A stretch of DNA of 64,000 nucleotides from Candidatus Nomurabacteria bacterium (GTDB taxonomy: Bacteria > Patescibacteriota > Minisyncoccia > Phycocordibacterales > UBA9973): the NCBI GenBank assembly GCA_021413905.1, contig JAIOPO010000001.1, forward strand, positions 9,159-73,158, given 5' to 3'. Below the pieces are notes generated by a model, which was given only the letters and a program-made list of their open reading frames with translations, did no database searches and had not been told where the DNA came from. Below are positions 5,932-58,347 of this stretch, piece by piece. A program made the translations under genes and the position numbers. The first letter of the stretch is position 1. Each line of letters starts with the position of its first letter.

Positions 5932-7512
<1,581 letters not shown>

Positions 7513-10421: not shown

Positions 10422-11744
10422 ATGAAAAATTTAGATTTAAAAAAAAATAAAATTCCAGACAAATCAGGGGTTTATTTTTTTATGGGAGGTAAAAAAATCC
10501 TTTATATTGGCAAAGCCACATCTCTAAAAGACAGAGTAAAAAGCTACTTCCCCTCGACTACGCTCGGGGCAGGTCGGCTTTTGGATTCTCGCGGACCGTT
10601 GATTACAGATATGGTTACAAAAGCTACAAATATTAAATGGCAGGAAACTGACTCGGTTTTAGAAGCACTTATTTTAGAAACGAATTTGATAAAAAAACAT
10701 CAGCCATATTACAATACAAAAGAAAAAGATGATAAAAGTTTTAATTATGTTTGCATAACGAAAGAGGAGTTGCCCAAGGTTTTGATTGTCAGAGGTAGAG
10801 ATTTACAAAAGAAAAAGAAGAATTCTCCCGCCTTCGCCCTCGGAGACATAGGACAGGGAACCCACGGCTCCTTGAATTCTTCTGTTTCTTTTTCCAGTGT
10901 GTTCGGTCCTTTTCCAAACGGCGGGCAATTGAAAGAAGCTTTGAAAATAATTCGTAGAATATTTCCTTTCTTAGACGAAAAAAGTAAAAATCATTATGAA
11001 TTTTACAAGCAAATAAATCTAGTTCCAGAAAAAAAAGATTTGTTATTAAAAAATATTAAAAATATAAAACTCTTTTTCGAGGGTAAGAAAAAATCTATTT
11101 TAAAAAATCTTGAAAAAGAAATGAATGTGTATGCAAAAAATCACGAATTTGAAAAAGCAGGTGAAATAAAAAGACAGATTTTTGCATTGAAGCATATTAA
11201 TGACATATCCCTTATCAAGAACTTACCAGAGAAGAATTTTCCTGCCTTCGCCCTCGGAGACATAGGACAGGGAACCCACGGCTCCTTAAATTCTTCTCTG
11301 TTTAATTCTTTCCGCATAGAAGCATATGATATAGCTCATATGTCTGGCAAAAATATGGTGGGTGTGATGGTGGTATTGGAAAATGGTGAAGTGAATAAAA
11401 ATCAATACAGAAAATTTTTAATAAAAAATTACACAAGTTCAAATGATACTGGTGCATTGAGTGAAGTTTTGTCTCGTCGTTTGAAACATGCAGAATGGCA
11501 GTATCCAGATTTGATTGTGGTGGATGGTGGAACAGCTCAAAGGAATGTCGCACTTAAAATATTGAAAGAATTTAATTTAAAAATACCCGTGTCGGCAGTG
11601 GTAAAAGACGAAAAACATAAAGCGAAAATGATATTGTCCGCCGATTCTAAATTTAAAAAAGCAATTTTATTGGCAAATTCTGAGGCACATAGATTTGCTA
11701 TAAAATATCATAAAATTAAAAGAAATAAAGCTTTTTTGGGTTAA
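10422..11744 (+). CDS. uvrC: excinuclease ABC subunit C (short form; GIY-YIG and endonuclease domains, no C-terminal (HhH)2)
   Basis: GIY-YIG (GVYFF...ILYIGKA) and RIEAYDIAHMSG ... LIVVDGG ... EAHRFAI motifs. Confidence 0.85.
   Translation: MKNLDLKKNKIPDKSGVYFFMGGKKILYIGKATSLKDRVKSYFPSTTLGAGRLLDSRGPLITDMVTKATNIKWQETDSVLEALILETNLIKKHQPYYNTKEKDDKSFNYVCITKEELPKVLIVRGRDLQKKKKNSPAFALGDIGQGTHGSLNSSVSFSSVFGPFPNGGQLKEALKIIRRIFPFLDEKSKNHYEFYKQINLVPEKKDLLLKNIKNIKLFFEGKKKSILKNLEKEMNVYAKNHEFEKAGEIKRQIFALKHINDISLIKNLPEKNFPAFALGDIGQGTHGSLNSSLFNSFRIEAYDIAHMSGKNMVGVMVVLENGEVNKNQYRKFLIKNYTSSNDTGALSEVLSRRLKHAEWQYPDLIVVDGGTAQRNVALKILKEFNLKIPVSAVVKDEKHKAKMILSADSKFKKAILLANSEAHRFAIKYHKIKRNKAFLG
10816..10883. mobile_element. 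68-bp GC-rich MITE-like insertion with 9-bp terminal inverted repeats (agaagaatt / aattcttct), in frame inside uvrC (copy 1)
   Basis: Near-identical to copy 2 (3 mismatches). It encodes PAFALGDIGQGTHGSLNSS. GC content is far above the surrounding sequence. Confidence 0.6.
11231..11298. mobile_element. 68-bp GC-rich MITE-like insertion with 9-bp terminal inverted repeats, in frame inside uvrC (copy 2)
   Basis: Same element 415 bp downstream, same frame, same encoded peptide. Confidence 0.6.
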
Positions 11745-21227: not shown

Positions 21228-21962
21228 ATGCTAGACTATACATATGTCCTTAGTAATAGGCTATTAGCTTTATTAATAAGGACTTTCCAGTTTAAGCTAA
21301 TTTGGCTTATGAGTTTAGCGGAGCAGAACCGCGTTATTATGAAAAACAAAACATTAATACGATTCCTGGAGTCCTTTGTTTTATTGCCAGTAATCACGAC
21401 ATCAATGCCAGTTGGAAATGTTCCAATGAACAATATGAATGTTGTACCTCCACAAGTCGTATTATTACAACAAAAGAATATAGAGATTGGCGGATTTTTA
21501 GCTTTTAACCAAGTTGTTGATCCAAAAATCGAACAAATCAAAGCTCAAGGTGAAGCAATCGATGCGTATTTTAAAAAATATGATATGCCCTTGGAAGGTC
21601 TCGGTCAAAAAATGGCTGAAGAGGCTGATAAGAATGATATTGACTGGCGTCTTTTGCCTGCTATATCTGCTCGTGAATCTACGGGTGGTAAACAAGCTTG
21701 TAAAAGAGTTGCTCATAATTTCTTTGGCTGGGGTTCTTGTAAAATAGGCTTTAAGTCTGATCAAGAAGCTATTGAGGTTTTGGCTCGTAATTTGGGTGGT
21801 AATAATCCTAATACAGCACATCATTATGATGGTAAGACCAACAGAGAGATTTTACAAAAATACAATCCTCCGTCTATTGTTCCTCGTTATGCGGATCAGG
21901 TTATAAAAATCATGAATGAAATCGGGGATGTTGATTTAGGAGTAGAGACTGTAAATAGTTAA
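21228..21962 (+). CDS. glucosaminidase (GH73 / FlgJ-like) family cell-wall hydrolase with an N-terminal anchor (start may be 21306 or 21339)
   Basis: ISARESTGGKQACKRVAHNFFGWGS matches the LESGWG...NNLFG motif. Confidence 0.55.
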   Translation: MLDYTYVLSNRLLALLIRTFQFKLIWLMSLAEQNRVIMKNKTLIRFLESFVLLPVITTSMPVGNVPMNNMNVVPPQVVLLQQKNIEIGGFLAFNQVVDPKIEQIKAQGEAIDAYFKKYDMPLEGLGQKMAEEADKNDIDWRLLPAISARESTGGKQACKRVAHNFFGWGSCKIGFKSDQEAIEVLARNLGGNNPNTAHHYDGKTNREILQKYNPPSIVPRYADQVIKIMNEIGDVDLGVETVNS

Positions 21963-21978
21963 AAATTGATTAAAATAC

Positions 21979-22023
21979 AAAATGCCCCGCGACCATATGG
22001 TCGCGGGGCATTTTGTATTTTTT
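21979..22023. terminator. bidirectional terminator formed by a 36-bp perfect GC-rich palindrome between convergent genes
   Basis: aaaatgccccgcgaccatatggtcgcggggcatttt followed by a T-run. Confidence 0.7.
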
Positions 22024-22028
22024 CTAAC

Positions 22029-23129
22029 TTATTCCAAATGCAACAATGTCATTTTTTGATCTTTTGGTTCAAAAAGAGTTATTTGAAAATTGTAAGTTTT
22101 TCCAAGTTCCAATTTTTCATGAAGCTTTGCTTCAGAACCGAAAGTAGAATTGTGAACAAGTCCAGCCACGCCTTCTTTGATAGATACCAATGCGCCGTGT
22201 TTATTGTATTTAATCACAACACCTTTGATAATATCTCCTTTTTTCAATTTACCTTCGTATTCTTTCCAAGGGTTTTCCTTTAAAGCTTTGATAGAAAGAG
22301 AAATCTTGCCGTCTTTTATTTCAATAACTTTCGCACGGATAGGGTCGCCAACTTTAAACATTGAACGAGGATCTTCCACTAAGCCCCAATCAAGTTCAGA
22401 AATGTGAACTAATCCTTCTAATTTATCTTCAAGTTTCAAGAATACTCCGAAATCTACGATACCGGCAATTGTACAATCAATTTCATCTCCAATATTGTAT
22501 TTACTTAAAATTTCTTTTTTCTCATCAGGGTTGTTGTCTTTTTCAGAAAAGATAAGTTTGCCTTCTTTTGGTAAAGTCGAAATCATCATTACAGATATTT
22601 TTTGACCTACCAATTTTTTCAATTCTTTCAAGATTTTATCTTTATCAGAATCCAATACACGAGGATAATGATCTGCTTTTAATTGAGAAGCAGGCAAGAA
22701 TCCTTGTATGCCTTGCCATTCTAAAATGAGTCCTCCTTTGTTTGCATCTTTGATCTCCAAATCCATTATAGTCTTTGATTTGATAGCTTTTTCAGCTTCA
22801 GACCAGATAAGAGCTTGTTTTGCTTCTTTCAAGGAAAGCTCCACATATCCGTCTTCATTTTCAACTTCGACTACTTTAGCTTTGATTAAGTCTCCAGCAT
22901 TTATCTTCTTTATGATGTCTTTTGCATTTATGAATTCACGACCATAAATGATACCTGTGCCAAAAGGCGCAAGATCTACATATACAGATGATTTTTTTAT
23001 TAAAATCACTGGTCCTTCTACTAATGCATCGACTTCGAGTTTTACAGCACTACGATCTACTATTGATTTTAAAACTTTGTTTTCGTTTTCATCAATAGTT
23101 ATTACTTCTTCTTTTAATGATTTTTTCAT
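22029..23129 (-). CDS. rpsA: 30S ribosomal protein S1 (four S1 domains)
   Basis: Repeated S1-domain motifs (GD.I...V......G..L.L; GLVHISEL). Confidence 0.85.
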   Translation of the reverse strand: MKKSLKEEVITIDENENKVLKSIVDRSAVKLEVDALVEGPVILIKKSSVYVDLAPFGTGIIYGREFINAKDIIKKINAGDLIKAKVVEVENEDGYVELSLKEAKQALIWSEAEKAIKSKTIMDLEIKDANKGGLILEWQGIQGFLPASQLKADHYPRVLDSDKDKILKELKKLVGQKISVMMISTLPKEGKLIFSEKDNNPDEKKEILSKYNIGDEIDCTIAGIVDFGVFLKLEDKLEGLVHISELDWGLVEDPRSMFKVGDPIRAKVIEIKDGKISLSIKALKENPWKEYEGKLKKGDIIKGVVIKYNKHGALVSIKEGVAGLVHNSTFGSEAKLHEKLELGKTYNFQITLFEPKDQKMTLLHLE

Positions 23130-34607: not shown

Positions 34608-34637
34608 AAAAGCTTTTTCATATGTCTGACATATGGG
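34608..34637. repeat. REP-like double palindrome (aaaagctttt plus catatgtctgacatatg), solo copy immediately 3' of tRNA-Leu(TAG)
   Basis: Same two hairpin modules as those flanking the Y1 transposase at 57370-58144. Confidence 0.7.
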
Positions 34638-34642
34638 TTTTG

Positions 34643-34724
34643 TGCTGGAGGAGGGACTCGAACCCTCAAACCTTGCGGTACTAGTTCCTAAGACTAGCGC
34701 GTATACCAATTCCGCCACTCCAGC
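34643..34724 (-). tRNA. tRNA-Leu (anticodon TAG), long variable arm
   Basis: Manual fold: acceptor GCTGGAG/CTCCAGC, anticodon loop CTTAGGA, T-loop GGTTCGAGTCC. Confidence 0.8.
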
Positions 34725-34742
34725 AATTTTTCAAATATTATT

Positions 34743-34815
34743 TATTTGAATGTGCGCCCAGAAGGGATCGAACCTTCGACCTTATCCTTAAGAGGGATCT
34801 GCTCTACCAGCTGAG
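34743..34815 (-). tRNA. tRNA-Lys (anticodon CTT)
   Basis: Manual fold: GCGCCTA acceptor, anticodon loop CTCTTAA, GGTTCGATCC T-arm. Confidence 0.8.
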
Positions 34816-34934
34816 CTATAGGCGCATGTTTACTTTTTTAATTTAACTTCTAATTATATTTTGCCAATACTGTTATTTACCAAAACAGCTATAGGCGCAT
34901 GCAAAACTAAATTTTCATTTTTAATAAAAATTTG

Positions 34935-35016
34935 TGCCCGGAGTGGGGGTCGAACCCACATCCCTTGCGAGACACGATTTTAAGTCGTGCGCGTATACCA
35001 ATTCCGCCATCCGGGC
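34935..35016 (-). tRNA. tRNA-Leu (anticodon TAA), long variable arm
   Basis: Manual fold: GCCCGGA acceptor, anticodon stem CACGA/TCGTG with loop CTTAAAA. Confidence 0.8.
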
Positions 35017-35064
35017 TTATTACAATAATTTAATTTTATCAAATTACTTCCTTTTTTAAAAGGG

Positions 35065-35136
35065 AGGCCTAGGACGGAATCGAACCGTCGTATAAAGATT
35101 TTGCAGATCTTTGCCTTACCACTTGGCGACTAGGCC
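35065..35136 (-). tRNA. tRNA-Cys (anticodon GCA)
   Basis: Manual fold: GGCCTAG acceptor, anticodon loop CTGCAAA, discriminator U. Confidence 0.8.
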
Positions 35137-37476: not shown

Positions 37477-38664
37477 ATGAAGAAATCAAAGAAAAAAATA
37501 AATAACATAAAATTTAAAAAGAAAAACATCTATATAGATTTCTCGGCTTCCTTTTTACCAAATCCGAGTTCTATTCATGATTTAGGTGTTAAGGCTAGAA
37601 AAGATTTGGAAAATGCCAGAAAAGAAATATCTTTGGAATTATTTGCTCGTCCAAATGAAATTATTTTTACTAGTGGGGGAACAGAAAGTAATAATTTAGC
37701 TATATTGGGAGTAGTTACATATGTCAGACATAGGGAAATCCCTATGTCTGACATATGTTCTGTCGTAGTTCCTCACATTGTAACCACAAACATAGAACAT
37801 CCTTCTGTTTTGGAAGTTTATAAATATTTGGAAAAAACAAAACAAGCAGAGGTGACTTATATCAACGTAGAATCAAATGGCATAGTTGACCCAAAGAAAA
37901 TAAAAAAATCAATAAAAGAAAATACTGTTTTGGTTTCTGTTATGTACGCTAATAATGAAATAGGGACTATTCAACCGATCAAAGAGATTGCAAAAGAAAT
38001 TAGACATTTTAGAAAAAATAGTAAAAGTGTTTTTCCGTTTTTCCATACTGATGCAGTGCAAGCGGTAAATTATTTGGATTTAAATGTTGAAAAATTAGGA
38101 GTAGATTTGATGACATTGACGGGTTCAAAAATAGAAAATTCAGGGAAAGTCGGTATTTTGTATAAAAAAAACAATGTCATATTGTCTCCAATAATGCATG
38201 GTGGAGATCAAGAATTCGGACTTCGTCCAGGAACAGAAAATCTTATTGCTATTTTAGATTTTACAAAAGCTTTTAAGAATGTTCGCAAAATAAAAGAAAA
38301 AGAATCTGTCCGACTTTCAAAATTGCGTGATTATTTTTTTGACAAAATTAAAAAAATGGACGAAAAAATAATCTTAAATGGAGATTTAAAAAACAGATTG
38401 CCGAATAATGTAAATATAACAATACCAAAAGTGCCGAGCGATTTGCTTGTGCTTGAATTATCTGCTCGTGGAATATATATATCTGAAAAAAGTGCTTGTA
38501 AGTCTGGTGACATAAAGTCTTCTCATGTAATACGCGCAATTTGTAAAAAAGATTCGCAATCTTTGCGTTTCTCTATGGGTAGAATAACAAATAAAAATGA
38601 TATTGATTATACTCTGAAATCTTTATCTCAAATTTTGACCAAATTAAAAAAGTGGTATAATTAA
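37477..38664 (+). CDS. cysteine desulfurase / class V aminotransferase (IscS/NifS-like) carrying an in-frame 42-bp palindromic insert
   Basis: IIFTSGGTESNNLAILG...NIEHPSVL...VSVMYANNEIGTIQPI...HTDAVQA. Confidence 0.8.
   Translation: MKKSKKKINNIKFKKKNIYIDFSASFLPNPSSIHDLGVKARKDLENARKEISLELFARPNEIIFTSGGTESNNLAILGVVTYVRHREIPMSDICSVVVPHIVTTNIEHPSVLEVYKYLEKTKQAEVTYINVESNGIVDPKKIKKSIKENTVLVSVMYANNEIGTIQPIKEIAKEIRHFRKNSKSVFPFFHTDAVQAVNYLDLNVEKLGVDLMTLTGSKIENSGKVGILYKKNNVILSPIMHGGDQEFGLRPGTENLIAILDFTKAFKNVRKIKEKESVRLSKLRDYFFDKIKKMDEKIILNGDLKNRLPNNVNITIPKVPSDLLVLELSARGIYISEKSACKSGDIKSSHVIRAICKKDSQSLRFSMGRITNKNDIDYTLKSLSQILTKLKKWYN
37716..37757. repeat. 42-bp perfect palindrome (REP-like doublet), in frame inside the IscS-like CDS
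   Basis: acatatgtcagacataggga-aa-tccctatgtctgacatatgt. The arms contain the same catatgtc.gacata core as the REP elements. Confidence 0.75.
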
Positions 38665-39228: not shown

Positions 39229-41901
39229 ATGCCACCATTAAATAAGTTTACAACTAAAGCTAAGGATGCGATAAAAAAAGCTCATGAACTTGCTATTGAA
39301 CGCGGACAAAATCATGTTTCCGCTTTGCATTTATTGGCTTCTTTATTATTACAAGAAGAAAGTATGGTGAATTCTATTTTAGATAAAATGGAAATAGATA
39401 CTATGCTTTTAACTGATTCTGTTTTAGAAGCAATAGAAATGCCTGAATCACATACTACTGTTTCTCCTGCATATCAAATTTATTTAAATCCTGATTTAGC
39501 GCAAGTTATAGAACAATCTGTAAAATTTGCTGATTCATTAAAAGATGAATTTGTATCTACTGAACATTTATTTATTTCTATTTTAGAAGTGATGAGTGAA
39601 GCTCGCGAAATACTTTCTCGTTTTAGAATTCATCGTGATCCTGTTTTGAAAGTTTTAGAAACTTTACGCAGTCAAAATATTACAGATGTTACAGAAAATA
39701 AAAAATTTCGTTTAATACCGAAATACACTCGCAATCTTACCAAGCTTGCAAAAGAAGACAAACTCGATCCTGTCATCGGACGCGACAATGAAATAATGCG
39801 TATAATGCAAATTCTTTCTCGCAGAACAAAAAATAATCCGATATTGATAGGAGAAGCAGGCACAGGAAAAACTGCTGTGGTGGAAGGCTTGGCTCAACGT
39901 ATTGCTAAAAATGATGTTTCAGAATCTTTGAAAGATAAAGAAGTTGTATCTTTGGATTTAGGTTCTTTGATTGCTGGAACAAAATATCGCGGAGAATTTG
40001 AAGAAAGATTGAAAGGCATAATGAAAGAAATAGAAAGAGCAGATGACAAGATAATTCTCTTTATTGATGAAATACATACTATTGTCGGTGCTGGAGGTGC
40101 AGAAGGCACGATGGACGCTTCTAATATGTTGAAACCTGCTCTTGCGCGCGGAGAATTGCGTGCAATAGGAGCGACAACTTTGCGTGAATATCAAAAACAT
40201 ATTGAAAAAGATCCTGCTCTTGCTCGTCGTTTTCAACCAGTTTACATTGATGAGCCGAGCATTGAAGACGCGGTAGCAATATTGAGGGGATTAAAAGAAA
40301 AATATGAATTATTTCATGGTATTCGTATTACAGATGATGCTATTTTGTCTGCGGTGAATTTATCTACTAGATATATTACAAATAGATTTTTACCGGATAA
40401 AGCAGTGGATTTGATAGATGAAGCATCTTCTTCTTTGAAAATTTCTCTTGAAAATAAACCTCCTGTGCTCGAAGAAGCGCACAGAAAGATAATGCGTCTA
40501 GAGATTGAAAAAGAAGCTTTGAAAAAAGAAATTGAAAACAAAGAAGCTAAAAGTCGTGTAAAAGATATTGATAAAGAAATCGGTAATTTAAAAGAAAAAA
40601 CCAAAGAACTCGAATTGAAATGGCAAAATGAAAAAAATATTGTCATTGAAATTCGCACAATTAAAAAAGAATTGGAAACTTTGCGTTTGTCTGCTGAAGA
40701 TGCAGAAATGAAAGCTGATTTGTCTCGTGCTGCGGAAATTCGTTATGGTAAAATTCCAGAACTTAAAAAAGAACTTGAAAATAAATTGATTCGTTTAAAG
40801 AAATTGCAAAAATCTCGTAGAATTTTGAAAGAAGAAATTACAGCAGAAGATATTGCGGAGATTGTATCTCGTTGGACAGGAATACCACTTACAAAAATGC
40901 TCGAAGAAGAACGCGAGAAATTGGAAAAAATGGAAGAAGAATTAAATAAACGCGTGGTAGGACAAAATGATGCAGTAAAACGCGTAGCAGACGTCATACG
41001 CCGTTCACGAGCCGGTATTTCAGATCCGAACAGGCCAATAGGTTCTTTTATATTTTTGGGCCCAACAGGCGTAGGAAAAACAGAACTTACAAAGGCACTT
41101 TCACAATTTATGTTCAATGATGAGCGCGCTTTGATACGCGTAGATATGTCTGAATATATGGAGCGTCATTCTACTTCGAAACTCATAGGTTCGCCACCGG
41201 GTTATGTGGGGCATGATGAGGCTGGACAGTTGACCGAAGCTGTACGTCATCGACCATACTCTGTAGTTCTTTTTGATGAGATTGAAAAAGCGCATCCGGA
41301 AGTTTTCAATATGCTTTTGCAAGTCCTCGATGATGGTAGATTGACAGATGCCAAAGGCAGAGTGGTAAATTTCAAAAATACTATCATTATAATGACTTCA
41401 AATATCGGTTCACAATTTGTGGAGAAAATGGAATCCATCGGTTTTTCAAATAATACAGATAAAGAAAATTATAGTAATATGAAAGAAAAAGTAAACGGAG
41501 CATTGAAAGAACATTTTCGTCCGGAGTTTTTGAATCGCTTGGATGAGATAATCATTTTTGATATTCTTTCCGAAGAATCAATCAAAGACATTGTAAACTT
41601 GAGAATAAAAGTGGTGGAAGATCGTCTTGCCACAAAAGTAATAGCTTTAGAAATTTCAAATGAAGCTTTATCGTATTTGGCAAAAGAAGGTTACAATCCG
41701 CACTACGGCGCGCGACCTTTGAATCGTCTTATTCAAAATAAAATCCTAAACCCTGTGGCTTCATATATTATTTCAAAAGATGTGAAAAAGGGAGACAAAA
41801 TCCTCGTGACTGTAAAAGCAGGCGAGTTATTAATAGAAGCTAAGAAGGGTAAAATAAAAAGTTCAATGAAAGTTAAAACCCAATCACCGTATGTGAATTA
41901 A
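39229..41901 (+). CDS. clpB: ATP-dependent chaperone ClpB
   Basis: Two AAA+ modules ([18 protein letters not shown]; [15 protein letters not shown]) and a coiled-coil middle domain. Confidence 0.95.
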
Positions 41902-41937
41902 AAAAATCCCCTCAATTTTGAGGGGATTTTTTGTGAA
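41901..41937 (+). terminator. rho-independent terminator after clpB
   Basis: aaatcccctca-attt-tgaggggattttttg. Confidence 0.7.
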
Positions 41938-47675: not shown

Positions 47676-47975
47676 ATAATATAATCTGGGTAACTTACAT
47701 TAGATGTGCATCTAATTGAAACACTAACGATGTATATGTGAACATTGCACTGGCACATTTTACCATTTTATTGTAGACTTAAAAAGTCAATTAAATATGG
47801 ACCTAACCCTTGAATTAACATTTAAGGCACGGTCAACAGTAATCCGCTCAGGAGCATAAAACCCATCATTGGGGTACCTGAGCGGTCGTATTGGGAAACT
47901 GATACGGATGGCGAAAGCTATCACCTAGTGGTGGGCTTTTTGCTACCAATTTTATTAGATTAAGATAAAAAATTT

Positions 47976-52068: not shown

Positions 52069-52087
52069 TATTTAAATATATTTTGTC

Positions 52088-52116
52088 AAAAAAACCCATT
52101 AGTTGGGTTTTTTTGA
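52088..52116 (+). terminator. rho-independent terminator after rpmH
   Basis: aaaaaccca-ttagt-tgggttttttt. Confidence 0.6.
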
Positions 52117-52148: not shown

Positions 52149-52847
52149 GTGAAATTAGACAAAGCACAAAACATGGAAAATTTTAACAAAAATAATTCCA
52201 GTAATATTAATGAGTTTAATAGACGTGATTTGGAAAAAGATGTCTATGAAATTTTTAATATTTTGGAATTTGAGAAAGTCATCATTTCTTTTGATAAACT
52301 AAATGTATCAAGAGCTGATAATGCTTTGGTTTTTAGAACATTTCCAATAGATACAAAAAAAAGATTTTTGGATTTTGTTTTTAATCAAAGAAAGAATTTG
52401 TCATCACCTTATGATATTTATGTTTACGAAAGTGGCATAGATGTCAAATTGTTAATTAGTCCTAGTTACCAATATAATAAATTGGAGGATGAAATTAAAA
52501 AAGAATTAGCAATCAGAATAAAAGGGTTGCGTCTCGAGTGGATTTTTTTTGAAATTGTTAAAAAGCAAATATCTGAAAATAAAGAATTTTCTGATATTAT
52601 CAATGATATTTGTTTTTCCGAAGTTACTGATAATTTCCAACGCGCAATTAATTTTTTTCTAATTGGTTTAAATAAAAAAACACCACTACAATTAGTGGGT
52701 GGAAAATTTGACCAAAGGGCACATAAAAAATTGATGAAAAATATTCCTTCTTTGAGGTTTTCTGAACAAGAAGATTATCAGAATACCTTTAAAAAGGTAT
52801 TGGAAATACATCAGAATTATCCTTTGAAATCACTTCATTTGTTTTGA
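52149..52847 (+). CDS. hypothetical protein (not RnpA-like)
   Basis: 232-aa ORF. Confidence 0.4.
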   Translation: MKLDKAQNMENFNKNNSSNINEFNRRDLEKDVYEIFNILEFEKVIISFDKLNVSRADNALVFRTFPIDTKKRFLDFVFNQRKNLSSPYDIYVYESGIDVKLLISPSYQYNKLEDEIKKELAIRIKGLRLEWIFFEIVKKQISENKEFSDIINDICFSEVTDNFQRAINFFLIGLNKKTPLQLVGGKFDQRAHKKLMKNIPSLRFSEQEDYQNTFKKVLEIHQNYPLKSLHLF

Positions 52848-56840: not shown

Positions 56841-57368
56841 ATGAAAATAGTTGTTGGTTTGGGAAATCCTGGAAAAGAATATGAAAATACAAGACACAAT
56901 GCAGGTCGTATTGTGGTTGAAATTATTGAAAAAAAGTTATCTGATATAAAGATAAAATTTATCACACCAGATAATTTTATGAATAATTCCGGTAAGGCAG
57001 TCGCGCCTTTCATAAAAACAAAAAAAGATTTGGAAAATCTCGTAGTTATTTATGATGACATTGATTTGCCAATCGGAAAAATTAAAATTTCTTTCAATAG
57101 GTCCTCTGGTGGACATAATGGTGTGGGTTCAATTATTAAATCATTAAAATCTCAAGAATTTTTACGTATACGTGTGGGTATTTGTCCTGCGACACCGACA
57201 GGCAAATTAAAAAAACCAAAAGGAGAAGACGCAGTGTTAAAATTTTTGCTTGGAGAATTCAAAAAACCAGAACTCGACGAAATAAAAAAACTTTCAAAGA
57301 AAATAGCCGAAGCAGTGGAGACAATTTTCACCGAAGGCAAAGACAAGGCAATGAGCTTGTACAATTAA
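56841..57368 (+). CDS. pth: peptidyl-tRNA hydrolase
   Basis: MKIVVGLGNPGKEYENTRHNAGRIVVE. Confidence 0.9.
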   Translation: MKIVVGLGNPGKEYENTRHNAGRIVVEIIEKKLSDIKIKFITPDNFMNNSGKAVAPFIKTKKDLENLVVIYDDIDLPIGKIKISFNRSSGGHNGVGSIIKSLKSQEFLRIRVGICPATPTGKLKKPKGEDAVLKFLLGEFKKPELDEIKKLSKKIAEAVETIFTEGKDKAMSLYN

Positions 57369-57369
57369 T

Positions 57370-57406
57370 CCCATATGTCTGACATATGGAAAAACTTTTG
57401 TTTGTA
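57370..57406. repeat. left REP-like double hairpin (catatgtctgacatatg plus aaaaacttttg) flanking the Y1 transposase
   Basis: 37-nt direct repeat of the 58108-58144 copy with 1 mismatch. Confidence 0.75.
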
Positions 57407-57421
57407 TGATATAATACATTT

Positions 57422-58120
57422 ATGTCATATAGAAAAGAGGCGCTTGTGGACGGTGAATATTATCACGTCTACAATCGGGGTAACAGTAAACAAAATATAT
57501 TTTTAGACAAAGCTGATTACGAGCATTTTGTGAAATGTCTTTTTGTGTGTAATACTCATCGTAATTTTAATTTTCGAGATAATATTGTTTCTCCAAATAT
57601 TGATTCTTTTGATTTTGATCGGGGAGAGACTTTGGTATCTATTGGTGCTTGGGTTTTAATGCCAAATCATTTTCATATTTATTTAACAATCAATCCAAAT
57701 CGTTCTCATAAATCTGACAATTGGAAAAAGAATAATATTTCAGAATTCATGCGCAAACTTTCCACCGCATATTCAAAATATTTTAATGCAAAATACAATA
57801 GAACTGGCGGACTTTTTGAAGGTACTTTTAAATCTGTGATGATGTCGCAAGATACTCAGTCAAAATATATTTTTGCTTACATACATTTGAATCCGGTAAA
57901 AATTATTGATCATAATTGGCGGACAAAAGGTATTGATAAAAAGAAAGCTGTGGATTTTTTGAATACTTATAAATGGGGTAGTTATTTGGATTATGCCTCA
58001 GAAGAAGAACGTAAAGAAAGTACTATATTGCAAAAGTCTGATTTTCCAAAGTATTTTCTTGATATTAAAGATTTTAATGATGAAATTTTTGACTGGCTCA
58101 GTTTTCCCCCATATGTCTGA
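57422..58120 (+). CDS. tnpA: IS200/IS605-family Y1 (HUH) transposase, RAYT-like
   Basis: HVYNRG...MPNHFHIYL (HUH motif) and the catalytic-Tyr region YIHLNPVK. The C-terminal codons and stop lie inside the right hairpin. Confidence 0.75.
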   Translation: MSYRKEALVDGEYYHVYNRGNSKQNIFLDKADYEHFVKCLFVCNTHRNFNFRDNIVSPNIDSFDFDRGETLVSIGAWVLMPNHFHIYLTINPNRSHKSDNWKKNNISEFMRKLSTAYSKYFNAKYNRTGGLFEGTFKSVMMSQDTQSKYIFAYIHLNPVKIIDHNWRTKGIDKKKAVDFLNTYKWGSYLDYASEEERKESTILQKSDFPKYFLDIKDFNDEIFDWLSFPPYV

Positions 58121-58144
58121 CATATGGAAAAGCTTTTGTTTGTA
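58108..58144. repeat. right REP-like double hairpin flanking the Y1 transposase
   Basis: cccatatgtctgacatatggaaaagcttttgtttgta. Confidence 0.75.
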
Positions 58145-58347
58145 AGGTTTTTTAGCATTTGATTTATCTTTATATTTTTAATATATTATATTAAGTTGAT
58201 AGTTCTTTAAAAAAGGTTTTTCTCTCTGTTTAAGAATCAATGAAATTAATCGTTGTTTCAAATAACAGAGGGAGAAGCCGAATACCCTTACTTTTAGAGT
58301 AAAAAAATAGTAGGTTTGAAAAATTTTAAACTTAAAAATTCAGTATC

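What the first reader, a model, noticed from the sequence alone, without database searches (positions are those of the whole stretch)
57370..58144. IS200/IS605-like Y1 transposase flanked by direct copies of a double hairpin; a REP/RAYT-like repeat family with at least four loci in the window
The 232-aa ORF carries the HUH motif (MPNHFHIYL) and the catalytic-Tyr region (YIHLNPVK) of single-strand Y1 transposases. A 37-nt unit, ccc-CATATGTC-t-GACATATG-g-AAAAGCTTTT-gtttgta (two adjacent palindromes), is present on both sides at 57370-57406 and 58108-58144. The right copy encodes the last 4 residues and the stop codon of the transposase. The element sits directly after the pth stop codon. A solo copy with the two hairpins in the same relative order lies at 34608-34637, abutting tRNA-Leu, and a REP-like doublet lies inside the IscS-like gene at 37716-37757. 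This is the organisation of REP-associated tyrosine transposases with dispersed REP hairpins, which has been little documented outside Proteobacteria.
Basis: partly seen in the sequence, partly recalled or inferred. Interest (0 to 1): 0.65.

Follow-up and report, generated by a model that had tools for sequence, protein, structure and literature searches.

The report
Hairpin-flanked RAYT-like gene in Patescibacteria
A single-copy, strongly conserved relative of the "REP-associated" tyrosine transposases sits between two copies of its own small DNA hairpin in a Candidatus Nomurabacteria genome, and a few more copies of that hairpin lie elsewhere, one pair in frame inside an essential gene; this is a known kind of system found in a bacterial group where I found no published description of it.

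Summary
ORF 57422-58120 (232 aa) has the HUH (H83-F84-H85) and Tyr (Y153, YIHLNP) motifs. It is bracketed by a 37-nt direct repeat (36/37 identical), and the same hairpin recurs beside tRNA-Leu and as a 42-nt in-frame inverted doublet inside the cysteine desulfurase gene. Only the first hairpin (8 bp, 3-nt loop) is real; the second "palindrome" barely folds and is not conserved.

The protein is closer to RAYTs than to IS200 transposases: Y---NP motif, sole NCBIfam hit REP_Tyr_transpos (below cut-off), best fold match 4ER8. It is single copy in the window and under purifying selection (dN/dS 0.07). It belongs to a Patescibacteria family with thousands of homologs.

In 14 loci compared, the gene has lineage-specific hairpins that match each other within each locus: one overlapping the promoter, one at the stop codon and, in 11 of the 14 (a decayed relic here), one in frame between the HUH and Tyr motifs. 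The solo and doublet copies are absent from the orthologous sites of a syntenic relative.

Differences from canonical RAYT/REP are no GTAG foot, low copy number and direct orientation of the flanking units. Verdict: a REPtron-like RAYT system, a new variant of a known kind, of moderate interest. Catalysis and mobilisation are inferred, not shown.

The parts
57370..57406 (+). Left hairpin unit. The core CCATATGTCTGACATATGG lies at 57371-57389, followed by the tail AAAAACTTTTGTTTGTA. It starts 1 nt after the pth stop codon.
   Evidence: As ssDNA it folds at -7.4 kcal/mol, z = -3.8. It is 34/37 identical (my count) to the left unit of L010, although synonymous sites of the gene are saturated.
57387..57415 (+). 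Promoter-like site of the RAYT-like gene. The -35 TGGAAA (57387-57392) overlaps the 3' arm and tail of the left hairpin. After a 17-nt spacer comes a TG-extended -10 TATAAT (57410-57415). The ATG lies 6 nt after the -10, which suggests a leaderless-type mRNA.
   Evidence: 10 of 12 consensus matches, the best in the region. A -10 box 12-18 nt before the ATG and a hairpin ending 22-32 nt before the ATG recur across the homologous loci. This is a consensus match only; function is inferred.
57422..58120 (+). RAYT-like HUH/Y1 nuclease gene (232 aa) with HUH = H83-F84-H85 and catalytic Tyr = Y153 in AYIHLNP. It has a roughly 70-aa helical C-terminal region containing the YKWGSY motif.
   Evidence: - Pfam Y1_Tnp, 22 bits (cut-off 23); NCBIfam REP_Tyr_transpos, 47.6 bits (cut-off 80).
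- AlphaFold2 model with pLDDT 86 and pTM 0.86.
- Foldseek best match 4er8_A, E = 2.4e-7.
- 5577 homologs, the top 120 at 57-84% identity.
- dN/dS 0.07.
57705..57730 (+). Decayed in-frame internal copy of the hairpin unit (CTCATAAATCTGACAATTGGAAAAAG). It encodes the loop SHKSDNW between the HUH and Tyr motifs.
   Evidence: - By my count it matches 20 of the 25 positions of the unit.
- It no longer folds.
- 10 homologous loci carry an intact hairpin at codons 89-96 that matches their own flanking hairpins.
- Most of the 111 top homologs that could be scored carry H[MK]SD[ML]W here.
- It is the only stretch with pLDDT below 50, residues 98-101.
58108..58144 (+). Right hairpin unit, in direct orientation. 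The core lies at 58109-58127, followed by the tail AAAAGCTTTTGTTTGTA. It encodes the last residues (P-Y-V) and the TGA stop codon of the gene.
   Evidence: It folds at -8.0 kcal/mol, z = -4.3. In L010 the loop base is G, which removes the stop codon and makes the protein 6 aa longer.
34608..34637 (-). Solo hairpin unit (minus strand: CCCATATGTCAGACATATGAAAAAGCTTTT), 6 nt downstream of the 3' end of tRNA-Leu(tag).
   Evidence: It is absent from the syntenic locus L051 of a related genome.
37717..37758 (.). REPIN-like inverted doublet of the hairpin. It is a perfect 42-nt palindrome of 14 codons, in frame in a loop of cysteine desulfurase (ORF 37477-38664).
   Evidence: -; it folds at -19.8 kcal/mol, z = -10.9.
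- The closest orthologs lack it, and removing the 14 codons restores the ortholog's loop length.

Best explanation
The ORF encodes a single-copy HUH/Y1 single-strand DNA nuclease of the RAYT (TnpA_REP, class 2) type. It belongs to a large, strongly conserved family specific to Patescibacteria. The gene sits in a REPtron-like arrangement with three copies of its cognate hairpin: one overlapping its own promoter and abutting the stop codon of pth, a decayed in-frame copy between the catalytic motifs, and one overlapping its stop codon. A few further copies of the same unit are dispersed in the genome. They include a solo copy behind a tRNA gene and an inverted doublet (REPIN-like) inserted in frame into a tolerant loop of cysteine desulfurase.

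The proposed mechanism is by analogy with E. coli TnpA_REP and IS608/ISDra2 TnpA. The enzyme would bind the folded hairpin on transiently single-stranded DNA. It would then cut and rejoin next to the hairpin through a covalent 5'-phosphotyrosine link at Y153, with H83/H85 holding the metal ion. This occasionally copies or moves hairpin units, while the gene itself is inherited as a host gene.

**Shown here:** the anatomy, the family-wide conservation of that anatomy, the match between protein clade and hairpin type, purifying selection on both gene and hairpins, and presence/absence differences of dispersed copies between related genomes.

**Inferred:** hairpin binding, cleavage, the strand used, and that this enzyme is what disperses the hairpins.
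For: **1. Protein identity**
- HUH motif plus the Y---NP Tyr motif, which is the class 2 signature in PMC6006769.
- REP_Tyr_transpos is the only NCBIfam hit for 35 of 35 family members, and none hit IS200-type models. Pfam Y1_Tnp is hit by 30 of 35.
- AlphaFold2 model with pLDDT 86. The best PDB fold match is 4er8_A, RAYT bound to a REP hairpin, at E = 2.4e-7. ISDra2, IS608 and IS200 TnpA follow at about 1e-4.

**2. Behaves like a host gene, not an insertion sequence**
- One copy in 64 kb.
- Its 90%-identity cluster has 1 sequence on 1 contig, and the nearest relative is 84% identical.
- dN/dS is 0.07 against L010 and 0.10 for L025 against L027.
- The top-120 identity range (57-84%) is comparable to that of cysteine desulfurase (58-72%).

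**3. Cognate hairpins**
- The 14 loci compared (the window and 13 homologous loci) each have an upstream and a downstream hairpin (L018, not in the tabulated set, showed no downstream one). In 10 of them an intact third copy lies in frame at codons 89-96; the window has a decayed relic there.
- Within a locus the copies match each other. Between lineages they differ..ATGTCnGACAT.. in one clade and ..GGAAGCCTTGCTTCC.. in another.
- Between the window and L010 the hairpin is 18/19 identical (my count) although dS is 1.3.

**4. Dispersal and mobility**
- The core occurs 5 times against 0.18 expected.
- The solo and doublet copies are absent from the syntenic locus L051.
- The doublet is a clean 14-codon insertion relative to the two closest orthologs.
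- Cognate hairpins also lie in frame in rsmA (L025). Different perfect palindromic doublets occupy the same cysteine desulfurase loop in L055 and L056, and the L056 doublet recurs 11 kb away.

**5. Precedent**
- REPs flanking tnpA_REP and inserted in frame between its HuH and Y motifs are described for subclass 2.4 (PMC6006769).
- REPs inside genes and REPs that provide stop codons are described in PMC3733652.
Against: - **No GT[AG]G foot.** The hairpins lack the tetranucleotide of canonical REPs and show no obvious asymmetric guide sequence.
- **Low copy number.** There are 4 loci in this 64 kb. Only 3 exact hairpins exist in the whole related assembly JAZJXT01. Most 20-kb homologous loci have none beyond the gene itself.
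- **Direct orientation.** The two flanking units here are direct repeats, as in IS200/IS605 ends. Canonical REPtrons have inverted pairs.
- **Possible movement of the gene.** The gene with its hairpins lies at different places in two related genomes: after pth here and after murI in L010. In both, the junction is exactly at TAA|TCCC. That could mean the whole unit can move.
- **Weak sequence-level similarity.** Scores against curated RAYT models are below their cut-offs. A family profile finds 4er8 only at E = 0.4 by sequence.
- **No direct evidence of activity.** Nothing here shows binding or cleavage.
Confidence: 0.68

Rival explanations
1. The segment 57369-58144 is a compact autonomous IS200/IS605-type insertion sequence: left-end hairpin, tnpA, right-end hairpin in the same orientation. 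It transposes as a unit, 3' of a short target such as TAA. The other hairpins are solo ends or miniature derivatives.
For: - The flanking units are direct repeats of hairpin plus tail, as in IS200/IS605 ends.
- The unit is IS200-sized, about 775 bp.
- It lies at different genomic sites in two related genomes, with the same left junction TAA|TCCC right after a stop codon.
- The fold matches the IS608, ISDra2 and IS200 transposases.
Against: - Single copy in the window, and no near-identical copy anywhere among 5.8 billion proteins; the next best is 84%.
- dN/dS of 0.07 over a saturated dS indicates long vertical persistence.
- The Tyr motif is Y---NP, not the Y---Q of IS200 subclass 1.1.
- No family member hits an IS200-type NCBIfam model.
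- Homology between the window and L010 does not stop at the right hairpin. It runs about 180 nt further, to around 58326.
- In the L024-L027 clade the gene keeps the same neighbours across divergence.
Confidence: 0.12
2. The hairpins are host regulatory elements and are not mobile DNA. They would be an operator overlapping the gene's own -35, mRNA 3'-end stabilisers or terminators behind pth, the tRNA and the gene itself. The protein would be a domesticated hairpin-binding factor that autoregulates or processes them. On this view the dispersed copies arose by slow duplication and loss or by convergence.
For: - The upstream hairpin overlaps the -35 of the best promoter-like site, at a conserved distance from the ATG in 14 loci.
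- Three of the four intergenic copies, and the L004 solo copy, sit immediately after a stop codon or a tRNA 3' end.
- Copy number is low.
- The internal copy encodes a conserved peptide, H-x-S-D-x-W, so it may be retained for the protein.
Against: - The hairpin is not followed by a T-run. The genome's evident terminators are G+C-rich stems flanked by A/T runs, for example 41901-41932 and 52086-52116.
- A perfect 42-nt inverted doublet in frame inside cysteine desulfurase has no regulatory rationale, and the nearest orthologs lack it.
- In-frame cognate hairpins also occur in rsmA in another lineage.
- The protein keeps intact catalytic HUH and Tyr residues across the family.
Confidence: 0.17
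3. The repeats are chance palindromes in an A+T-rich genome, or assembly artefacts.
For: - The genome is A+T-rich and has many weak A/T palindromes.
- The Logan contig L001 breaks 11 nt after the gene, inside the right unit.
Against: - No shuffle in 100 reproduces the 37-mer pair or the five core matches.
- The same architecture is seen in independent assemblies from NCBI, JGI, ENA and Logan.
Confidence: 0.01

Closest known systems
E. coli TnpA_REP (RAYT, PDB 4ER8) with REP/BIME sequences: TnpA_Y1 subclass 2.2, Bertels group 2
   Same: - HUH plus Y---NP nuclease.
- Best structural match.
- Single-copy gene flanked by the hairpins it is associated with.
- Hairpins also dispersed, mostly just downstream of genes.
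   Different: - Here 232 aa rather than 165 aa, with an extra C-terminal helical region.
- Only 14% identity in the fold alignment.
- The hairpins have no GTAG foot and no bulge.
- A few copies are documented (4 loci in the 64 kb examined), whereas E. coli has hundreds by my recollection.
- The flanking units are direct repeats, not inverted pairs.
TnpA_Y1 subclass 2.4 (Bertels group 4; Cyanobacteria, Bacteroidetes and others), Quentin et al. 2018, PMC6006769
   Same: [quoted passage not shown]
- NH[IFV]H type HUH motif.
- Low copy number of the associated repeats (PMC5581495 reports about 14 occurrences of the flanking 16-mers).
   Different: - The Tyr motif here is YIHLNP, not YIxNNP. The W-motif is FE, not WQ.
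- Subclass 2.4 REPs are long, carry a GT[AG]G 'double foot' and vary in insert position and length.
- Here the insert sits at one fixed position (codons 89-96) and mostly encodes one peptide, H-x-S-D-x-W.
TnpA_Y1 subclass 2.1 (Bertels group 1; TIRYT of Di Nocera et al. 2013)
   Same: - Motif set: NH[YF]H, Y[IV]HLNP, and a tail with the W-S-S-Y 'SS' motif (WGSY in this protein, WSSY in most relatives).
- Median length 238 aa against 232 aa here.
   Different: - Subclass 2.1 is reported to have no REP-like hairpins, only long terminal inverted repeats with GGGGWSAS in some members.
- This family has short hairpins on both sides and inside the gene.
IS200/IS605 TnpA (IS608, ISDra2, IS200)
   Same: - Same fold and catalytic logic.
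- Subterminal hairpins in direct orientation at both ends.
- Compact size.
   Different: - Those proteins carry Y---Q, are about 130-150 aa, occur in multiple near-identical copies, often have tnpB alongside and spread horizontally.
- None of these features is seen here.
Rickettsia palindromic elements (RPE) and intragenic REPs (PMC3733652)
   Same: Palindromic repeats inserted in frame into loops of functional housekeeping proteins, leaving the reading frame intact.
   Different: - By my recollection, not checked here, RPEs are roughly 100-150 bp and no transposase has been assigned to them.
- Here the insert is a 42-nt doublet of the hairpin that flanks a RAYT-like gene in the same genome.

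Membership tests
TnpA_Y1 superfamily (HUH / single-Tyr nucleases, Pfam Y1_Tnp) | HUH motif and a single catalytic Tyr on the IS200-like alpha/beta fold | tested here: met
   - H83-F84-H85 and Y153 are invariant in the family alignments.
- Pfam Y1_Tnp scores 22 bits for this protein, just under the cut-off of 23. It is hit by 30 of 35 relatives, best E = 1e-10.
- The fold matches 4er8, 2xma, 2a6m and 2f4f at probability 1.00.
TnpA_Y1 class 2 (TnpA_REP / RAYT-like), Quentin et al. 2018 | Tyr motif Y---NP (IS200 class 1 has Y---Q) | tested here: met
   The motif is YIHLNP; N157 is invariant and P158 nearly invariant. The criterion comes from PMC6006769.
TnpA_Y1 class 2 (TnpA_REP / RAYT-like), Quentin et al. 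2018 | Low intragenomic copy number with no near-identical duplicates | tested here: inconclusive
   There is one copy in 64 kb, and the 90%-identity cluster has 1 member on 1 contig. The rest of the genome could not be read.
RAYT as curated by NCBI (NF047646 REP_Tyr_transpos, equivalog) | Score at or above the curated cut-off of 80 bits | tested here: not met
   The score is 47.6 bits, E = 1.5e-12. It is the only family hit for all 35 relatives, none reported at or above the cut-off. The protein is a relative of that family, not an equivalog.
REPtron (RAYT gene with its cognate REPs) | Gene flanked on both sides by copies of a hairpin that also occurs elsewhere in the genome | tested here: met
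   for the window, and for the 13 other loci compared. Extra copies lie at 34608-34637 and 37717-37758.
REPtron (RAYT gene with its cognate REPs) | Flanking REPs arranged as inverted pairs (REPINs) | tested here: not met
   The two flanking units here are direct repeats over 37 nt. In the GCCTTGC clade the orientation of the loop varies between copies. An inverted doublet exists only inside cysteine desulfurase.
Canonical REP sequences | 5' GT[AG]G tetranucleotide at the foot of the hairpin | tested here: not met
   No GTAG or GTGG adjoins any copy in the window or the related loci. The flanks only extend the palindrome (TYCC...GGRA). Atypical hairpins without GTAG are reported for subclasses 2.6 and 3.
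Canonical REP sequences | High copy number (tens to hundreds per genome), mostly extragenic | tested here: inconclusive
   There are 4 loci in 64 kb here. The related assembly JAZJXT01 has 3 exact copies in total. Homologous loci have 0 or 1 extra copies per 20 kb. The whole genome of this organism was not available.
TnpA_Y1 subclass 2.1 / 2.4 assignment | Phylogenetic or clustering placement with reference sequences of the 12 subclasses | not testable with these tools
   Reference sets were not available. Only motif comparison was possible: NHFH, FE, YIHLNP and WSSY resemble subclass 2.1, while the REP arrangement resembles subclass 2.4.
IS200/IS605 insertion sequences | Multiple near-identical copies, a Y---Q motif, and ends defined by left-end and right-end hairpins | tested here: not met
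   The gene is single copy in the window, the nearest homolog is 84% identical, and the motif is Y---NP. Homology with L010 extends beyond the right hairpin.
RAYT function | Binds and cleaves its cognate hairpin on single-stranded DNA | not testable with these tools
   This needs biochemistry. Only the retention of the catalytic residues and a confident model are available.

The most novel reading that the evidence does not exclude
Across Patescibacteria, this single-copy HUH nuclease, which evolves like a housekeeping gene, forms an integrated circuit with its hairpins and is not a leftover transposon. The same hairpin sits on the enzyme's own -35, inside its coding sequence at one fixed codon position, and on its stop codon, and all copies co-evolve with the protein. 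Cognate palindromic doublets are repeatedly found in frame at the same permissive loop of essential genes in different lineages: cysteine desulfurase in three genomes with three different palindromes, and rsmA in another lineage. This would imply one of two things. Either a long-lived vertically inherited REPIN-RAYT partnership operates in ultra-small streamlined genomes, or a host function (autoregulation, single-strand DNA processing at replication forks) has a site preference that is not explained by the known target rules.
Probability: 0.2. Interest if true: 0.7.

Novelty: new variant of a known kind. Interest (0 to 1): 0.45.

Why it matters
RAYT/REP systems are the best candidates for transposases that became long-term residents of bacterial genomes. 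What keeps them there is still debated.

Two full-text searches found no paper linking RAYTs to Patescibacteria. Patescibacteria have very small, densely coding genomes.

A RAYT-like gene in such genomes is notable on three counts:
- It has thousands of homologs.
- It is as conserved as housekeeping genes.
- It always sits with co-evolving hairpins at its promoter, in its coding sequence and at its stop codon.

That pattern argues the system is maintained by selection. It also gives a compact, alignable data set for studying how the nuclease and its hairpins co-evolve.

There is a practical point for annotation as well. Small in-frame palindromes explain length-variable loops in essential proteins of these organisms, and these repeats may break assemblies.

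Tried and rejected
- **Sequence search of solved structures.** The single protein found nothing relevant. A 35-sequence profile found 4er8 only at E = 0.4. The structural link therefore rests on the AlphaFold2 model and Foldseek.
- **Rfam.** No family reached its threshold at the locus. The permissive search gave only a weak DUF805b hit at 58268-58305 (15.7 bits, E = 0.21), so the hairpins are not a described RNA family.
- **Whole-genome count.** Attempts to extend the window by looking up edge genes failed. The genome-wide copy number of this organism remains unknown.
- **Terminator reading.** Rejected as the main explanation. There is no T-run after the stem on the coding strand, and the genome's clear terminators look different.
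- **Second hairpin.** AAAAGCTTTT was rejected as a structural element.
- **ORF 52149-52847.** It is also 232 aa and was checked as a possible paralog. It is unrelated.
- **Empty site for the whole unit.** L054 and L053 have pth followed by unrelated genes. Homology with L054 ends exactly at the pth stop codon, but no clean empty site was found.
- **Downstream conserved block (58197-58326).** It was found only in L010 among all fetched loci. I could not decide whether it belongs to the unit.
Full report
**1. The observation**

- ORF 57422-58120 (+) encodes 232 aa containing MPNHFHIYL and AYIHLNPVK.
- A 37-nt unit lies at 57370-57406 and 58108-58144, 36/37 identical. No match of that kind occurred in 100 shuffles.
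- The 17-nt core CATATGTCnGACATATG is found five times at up to 3 mismatches, against 0.18 expected, and no shuffle reached five.
- The left unit starts one base after the stop codon of pth (56841-57368; Pfam Pept_tRNA_hydro).
- The right unit supplies the last codons and the TGA stop of the ORF.
- A solo unit lies on the minus strand at 34608-34637, 6 nt behind tRNA-Leu(tag).
- Positions 37717-37758 are a perfect 42-nt palindrome made of two inverted copies of the hairpin. It is in frame (14 codons) inside the intact cysteine desulfurase ORF 37477-38664.

As single-stranded DNA the hairpin has an 8-bp stem and a 3-nt loop (-7.4 to -8.0 kcal/mol, z about -4), and the doublet folds at -19.8 kcal/mol (z = -10.9). 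The supposed second hairpin, AAAAGCTTTT, contributes almost nothing. It is imperfect in the left copy and is not conserved in the orthologous locus. It is better described as part of a conserved 18-nt A/T-rich tail of the unit.

**2. The protein**

Sequence models place it in the Y1 family but below curated thresholds. Pfam Y1_Tnp scores 22 bits against a cut-off of 23. NCBIfam REP_Tyr_transpos scores 47.6 bits against a cut-off of 80, with E = 1.5e-12. All 35 diverse relatives I aligned hit REP_Tyr_transpos and no other NCBIfam model, and 30 of 35 hit Y1_Tnp.

The PDB gave nothing by sequence with the single protein. A family profile found the E. coli RAYT only at E = 0.4, although that alignment places the HUH and Tyr motifs correctly.

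An AlphaFold2 model built on 43 homologs is confident (pLDDT 86, pTM 0.86). Its best Foldseek match among solved structures is 4er8_A, the E. coli REP-associated tyrosine transposase bound to a REP hairpin (E = 2.4e-7). The ISDra2, IS608 and IS200 transposases follow at about 1e-4.

In the classification of Quentin et al. 2018 (PMC6006769), the Tyr motif Y---NP defines class 2, the TnpA_REP-like proteins, while IS200 transposases carry Y---Q. This protein has YIHLNP.

**3. Host-gene behaviour**

The gene is single copy in the 64-kb window. Its 90%-identity cluster contains one sequence on one contig, annotated 'transposase [Candidatus Nomurabacteria bacterium]'. The next relative is 84% identical.

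The database search returned 5577 homologs. The best 120 are all 57-84% identical over the full length, and the named ones are nearly all Patescibacteria. The exhaustive search of cluster representatives found 10,578 clusters at E <= 1e-3, 2,153 at <= 1e-10 and 88 at <= 1e-30.

Against the 84% ortholog in L010, dN/dS is 0.07 with synonymous sites saturated (dS = 1.3). For L025 against L027 it is 0.10. An active insertion sequence would show several near-identical copies, and none are seen.

**4. The hairpins are a family-wide feature that tracks the protein**

I fetched loci for relatives from metagenomes and examined their flanks.

In the 14 loci compared (the window and 13 homologous loci):
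- A hairpin ends 22-32 nt before the ATG, and a -10 box usually lies 12-18 nt before the ATG.
- A second hairpin lies between 37 nt before and 33 nt after the end of the gene. One further locus, L018, showed no downstream hairpin and was not tabulated.
- In 10 of the 14 an intact third copy lies inside the gene at codons 89-96, just after the HUH strand; the window has a decayed relic at that position.

The hairpin sequence differs between lineages but the copies within a locus match each other. Examples are CCACATGTCnGACATGTGG, CATAAGTCnGACTTATG, GCGGAAGCCTTGCTTCCGC and CCATAAGCCTTGCTTATGG. Hairpin type follows protein clade.

The window also has the internal copy, at 57705-57730, but its stem has decayed. 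It encodes SHKSDNW. Most of the 111 top homologs that could be scored carry H[MK]SD[ML]W at that position, which is the hairpin read in one frame. That stretch is the only low-confidence part of the model, residues 98-101.

Between the window and L010 the flanking hairpins are 18/19 identical by my count, although synonymous sites are saturated. The hairpins are therefore constrained.

In the window, the best promoter-like site places its -35 inside the 3' arm and tail of the left hairpin and its TG-extended -10 six bases before the ATG. This suggests a leaderless transcript and possible autoregulation. That step is inference.

**5. Evidence that the dispersed copies are insertions**

The closest cysteine desulfurase orthologs (72% and 68% identical) lack the 14 codons. 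Removing the palindrome restores exactly the ortholog's loop length.

The syntenic locus L051 shares the gene order rbfA, IF-2, DUF4446, cysteine desulfurase, ClpB and nearby tRNA genes. It has no copy of the hairpin within 21 kb even at 4 mismatches, so both the solo copy and the doublet are absent there.

In the related assembly JAZJXT01 the exact hairpin occurs only three times: twice flanking the 84% ortholog and once behind a small ORF.

Other lineages show the same behaviour with their own hairpins. A cognate hairpin lies in frame in rsmA of L025. Different perfect 42-44-nt inverted doublets occupy the same cysteine desulfurase loop in L055 and L056, and the L056 doublet recurs 11 kb away.

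**6. Position of the gene itself**

In L010 the gene with its hairpins follows murI, not pth. Homology with the window begins exactly at TAA|TCCC. In L054, whose pth is 86% identical, homology with the window ends at the pth stop codon and an unrelated gene follows. In L053, pth is followed by an S1-domain gene.

So the unit, or its neighbourhood, has moved at least once. However, homology between the window and L010 continues past the right hairpin to about 58326, through a conserved stem-loop block. This does not fit an element bounded by the two hairpins. In the L024-L027 clade the neighbours are conserved.

**7. Comparison with what is known**

All the individual features have precedents:
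- REPtrons.
- REPs just behind stop codons or providing them.
- REPs inside genes (PMC3733652).
- Slowly evolving single-copy RAYTs with low-copy flanking 16-mers, Bertels groups 1 and 4 (PMC5581495).

The combination here is different:
- The motifs resemble subclass 2.1 (NHFH, YIHLNP, WSSY tail, about 238 aa), a subclass reported to have no REPs.
- The arrangement resembles subclass 2.4.
- The hairpins are short, lack GT[AG]G, are few, and flank the gene as direct repeats.
- The host is a Patescibacteria lineage. Neither Quentin et al. nor any paper found in two full-text searches mentions RAYTs in that group. This is absence within the searched library only.

**8. Verdict**

The most likely reading (about 0.68) is a REPtron-like RAYT system. 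It consists of a domesticated, single-copy HUH/Y1 nuclease and its cognate low-copy hairpins, some of which have inserted in frame into tolerant loops of essential genes.

The rivals are an IS200-like element that moves as a unit (about 0.12) and non-mobile regulatory hairpins bound by a domesticated protein (about 0.17).

Binding, cleavage and mobilisation are inferred by analogy with E. coli TnpA_REP and IS608. They need biochemistry and genome-wide or population-level counts.

I rate the finding a new variant of a known kind, with moderate interest (0.45).

Noticed in passing
window 58197-58326 (and L010 5261-5400): A block about 130 nt long, just downstream of the right hairpin, is conserved between the window and L010 only. 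It folds into a long stem-loop (-33.9 kcal/mol for 58215-58310) with at least one compensatory C-G to U-A change. It contains no conserved ORF and is followed by a membrane-protein gene in both genomes. Rfam gives only a weak DUF805b hit at 58268-58305 (15.7 bits, E = 0.21). It may be an undescribed cis-regulatory or small RNA, or part of the unit.
   Followed up: partly
L055 10237-10280; L056 10234-10275 and 21156-21194: The same loop of cysteine desulfurase carries different perfect 42-44-nt palindromes in two other Patescibacteria genomes. Each is an in-frame inverted doublet of a small hairpin. In L056 the doublet recurs 11 kb away. The loop is length-hypervariable across 40 homologs, which suggests recurrent in-frame palindrome insertion at one permissive site.
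   Followed up: partly
L025 10982-11000 (also L026 1413, L027 3157): A copy of that lineage's RAYT-flanking hairpin (CCATAAGCCTTGCTTATGG, with an extended stem) lies in frame inside the intact rsmA/ksgA-like ORF 10693-11502. That ORF overlaps the end of the RAYT-like gene.
   Followed up: partly
L056 8589-8632: A 44-nt perfect palindrome (GACTTGGAGGTTCTTCCTCCAAGCGGAGGAAGAACCTCCAAGTC) lies between two ORF pieces that both hit IF-2 domains. It may be another intragenic palindrome that splits or confuses the gene call.
   Followed up: no
L055 7371 and 7765; L056 4984 and 7912: Hairpins of the form CCCTCTCCTTnnnAAGGAGAGGG occur near rbfA in two different genomes. This may be a second, shared REP-like family.
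   Followed up: no
L031-L049 (e.g. L035 9906-9949): A more distant clade of the protein family (about 33% identity, 'MRYENFAE...') lacks the internal insert. About 100 nt upstream of the ATG it has a nearly invariant 44-nt perfect palindrome, TACTAAACGCTCAGCGTCTAATATTAGACGCTGAGCGTTTAGTA. No downstream hairpin was found.
   Followed up: partly
window 21972-22021: A 50-nt perfect palindrome (25-bp arms, no loop; AAAATACAAAATGCCCCGCGACCATATGGTCGCGGGGCATTTTGTATTTT) lies between convergent ORFs 21228-21962 (+) and 22029-23129 (-). It is probably a bidirectional terminator and is unrelated in sequence to the hairpin family.
   Followed up: no
window 47800-47922: A LOOT RNA (Rfam RF03000) scores 79 bits, above its gathering score of 46.4.
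   Followed up: no
window 5933-7502: A complete 16S rRNA gene is present, but Rfam finds no 23S or 5S rRNA anywhere in the 64 kb. The rRNA genes appear to be unlinked.
   Followed up: no
window 34642-35136 versus L051 6977-7547: The tRNA cluster next to rbfA is rearranged between the two syntenic genomes. In L051, tRNA-Lys and tRNA-Leu(tag) are on the opposite strand, and a roughly 100-nt segment including part of tRNA-Cys appears duplicated.
   Followed up: no
L001 (Logan contig SRR15633504_497572): An independent assembly of the same locus ends 11 nt after the stop codon of the gene, inside the right hairpin unit. This is consistent with repeats breaking the assembly graph.
   Followed up: no
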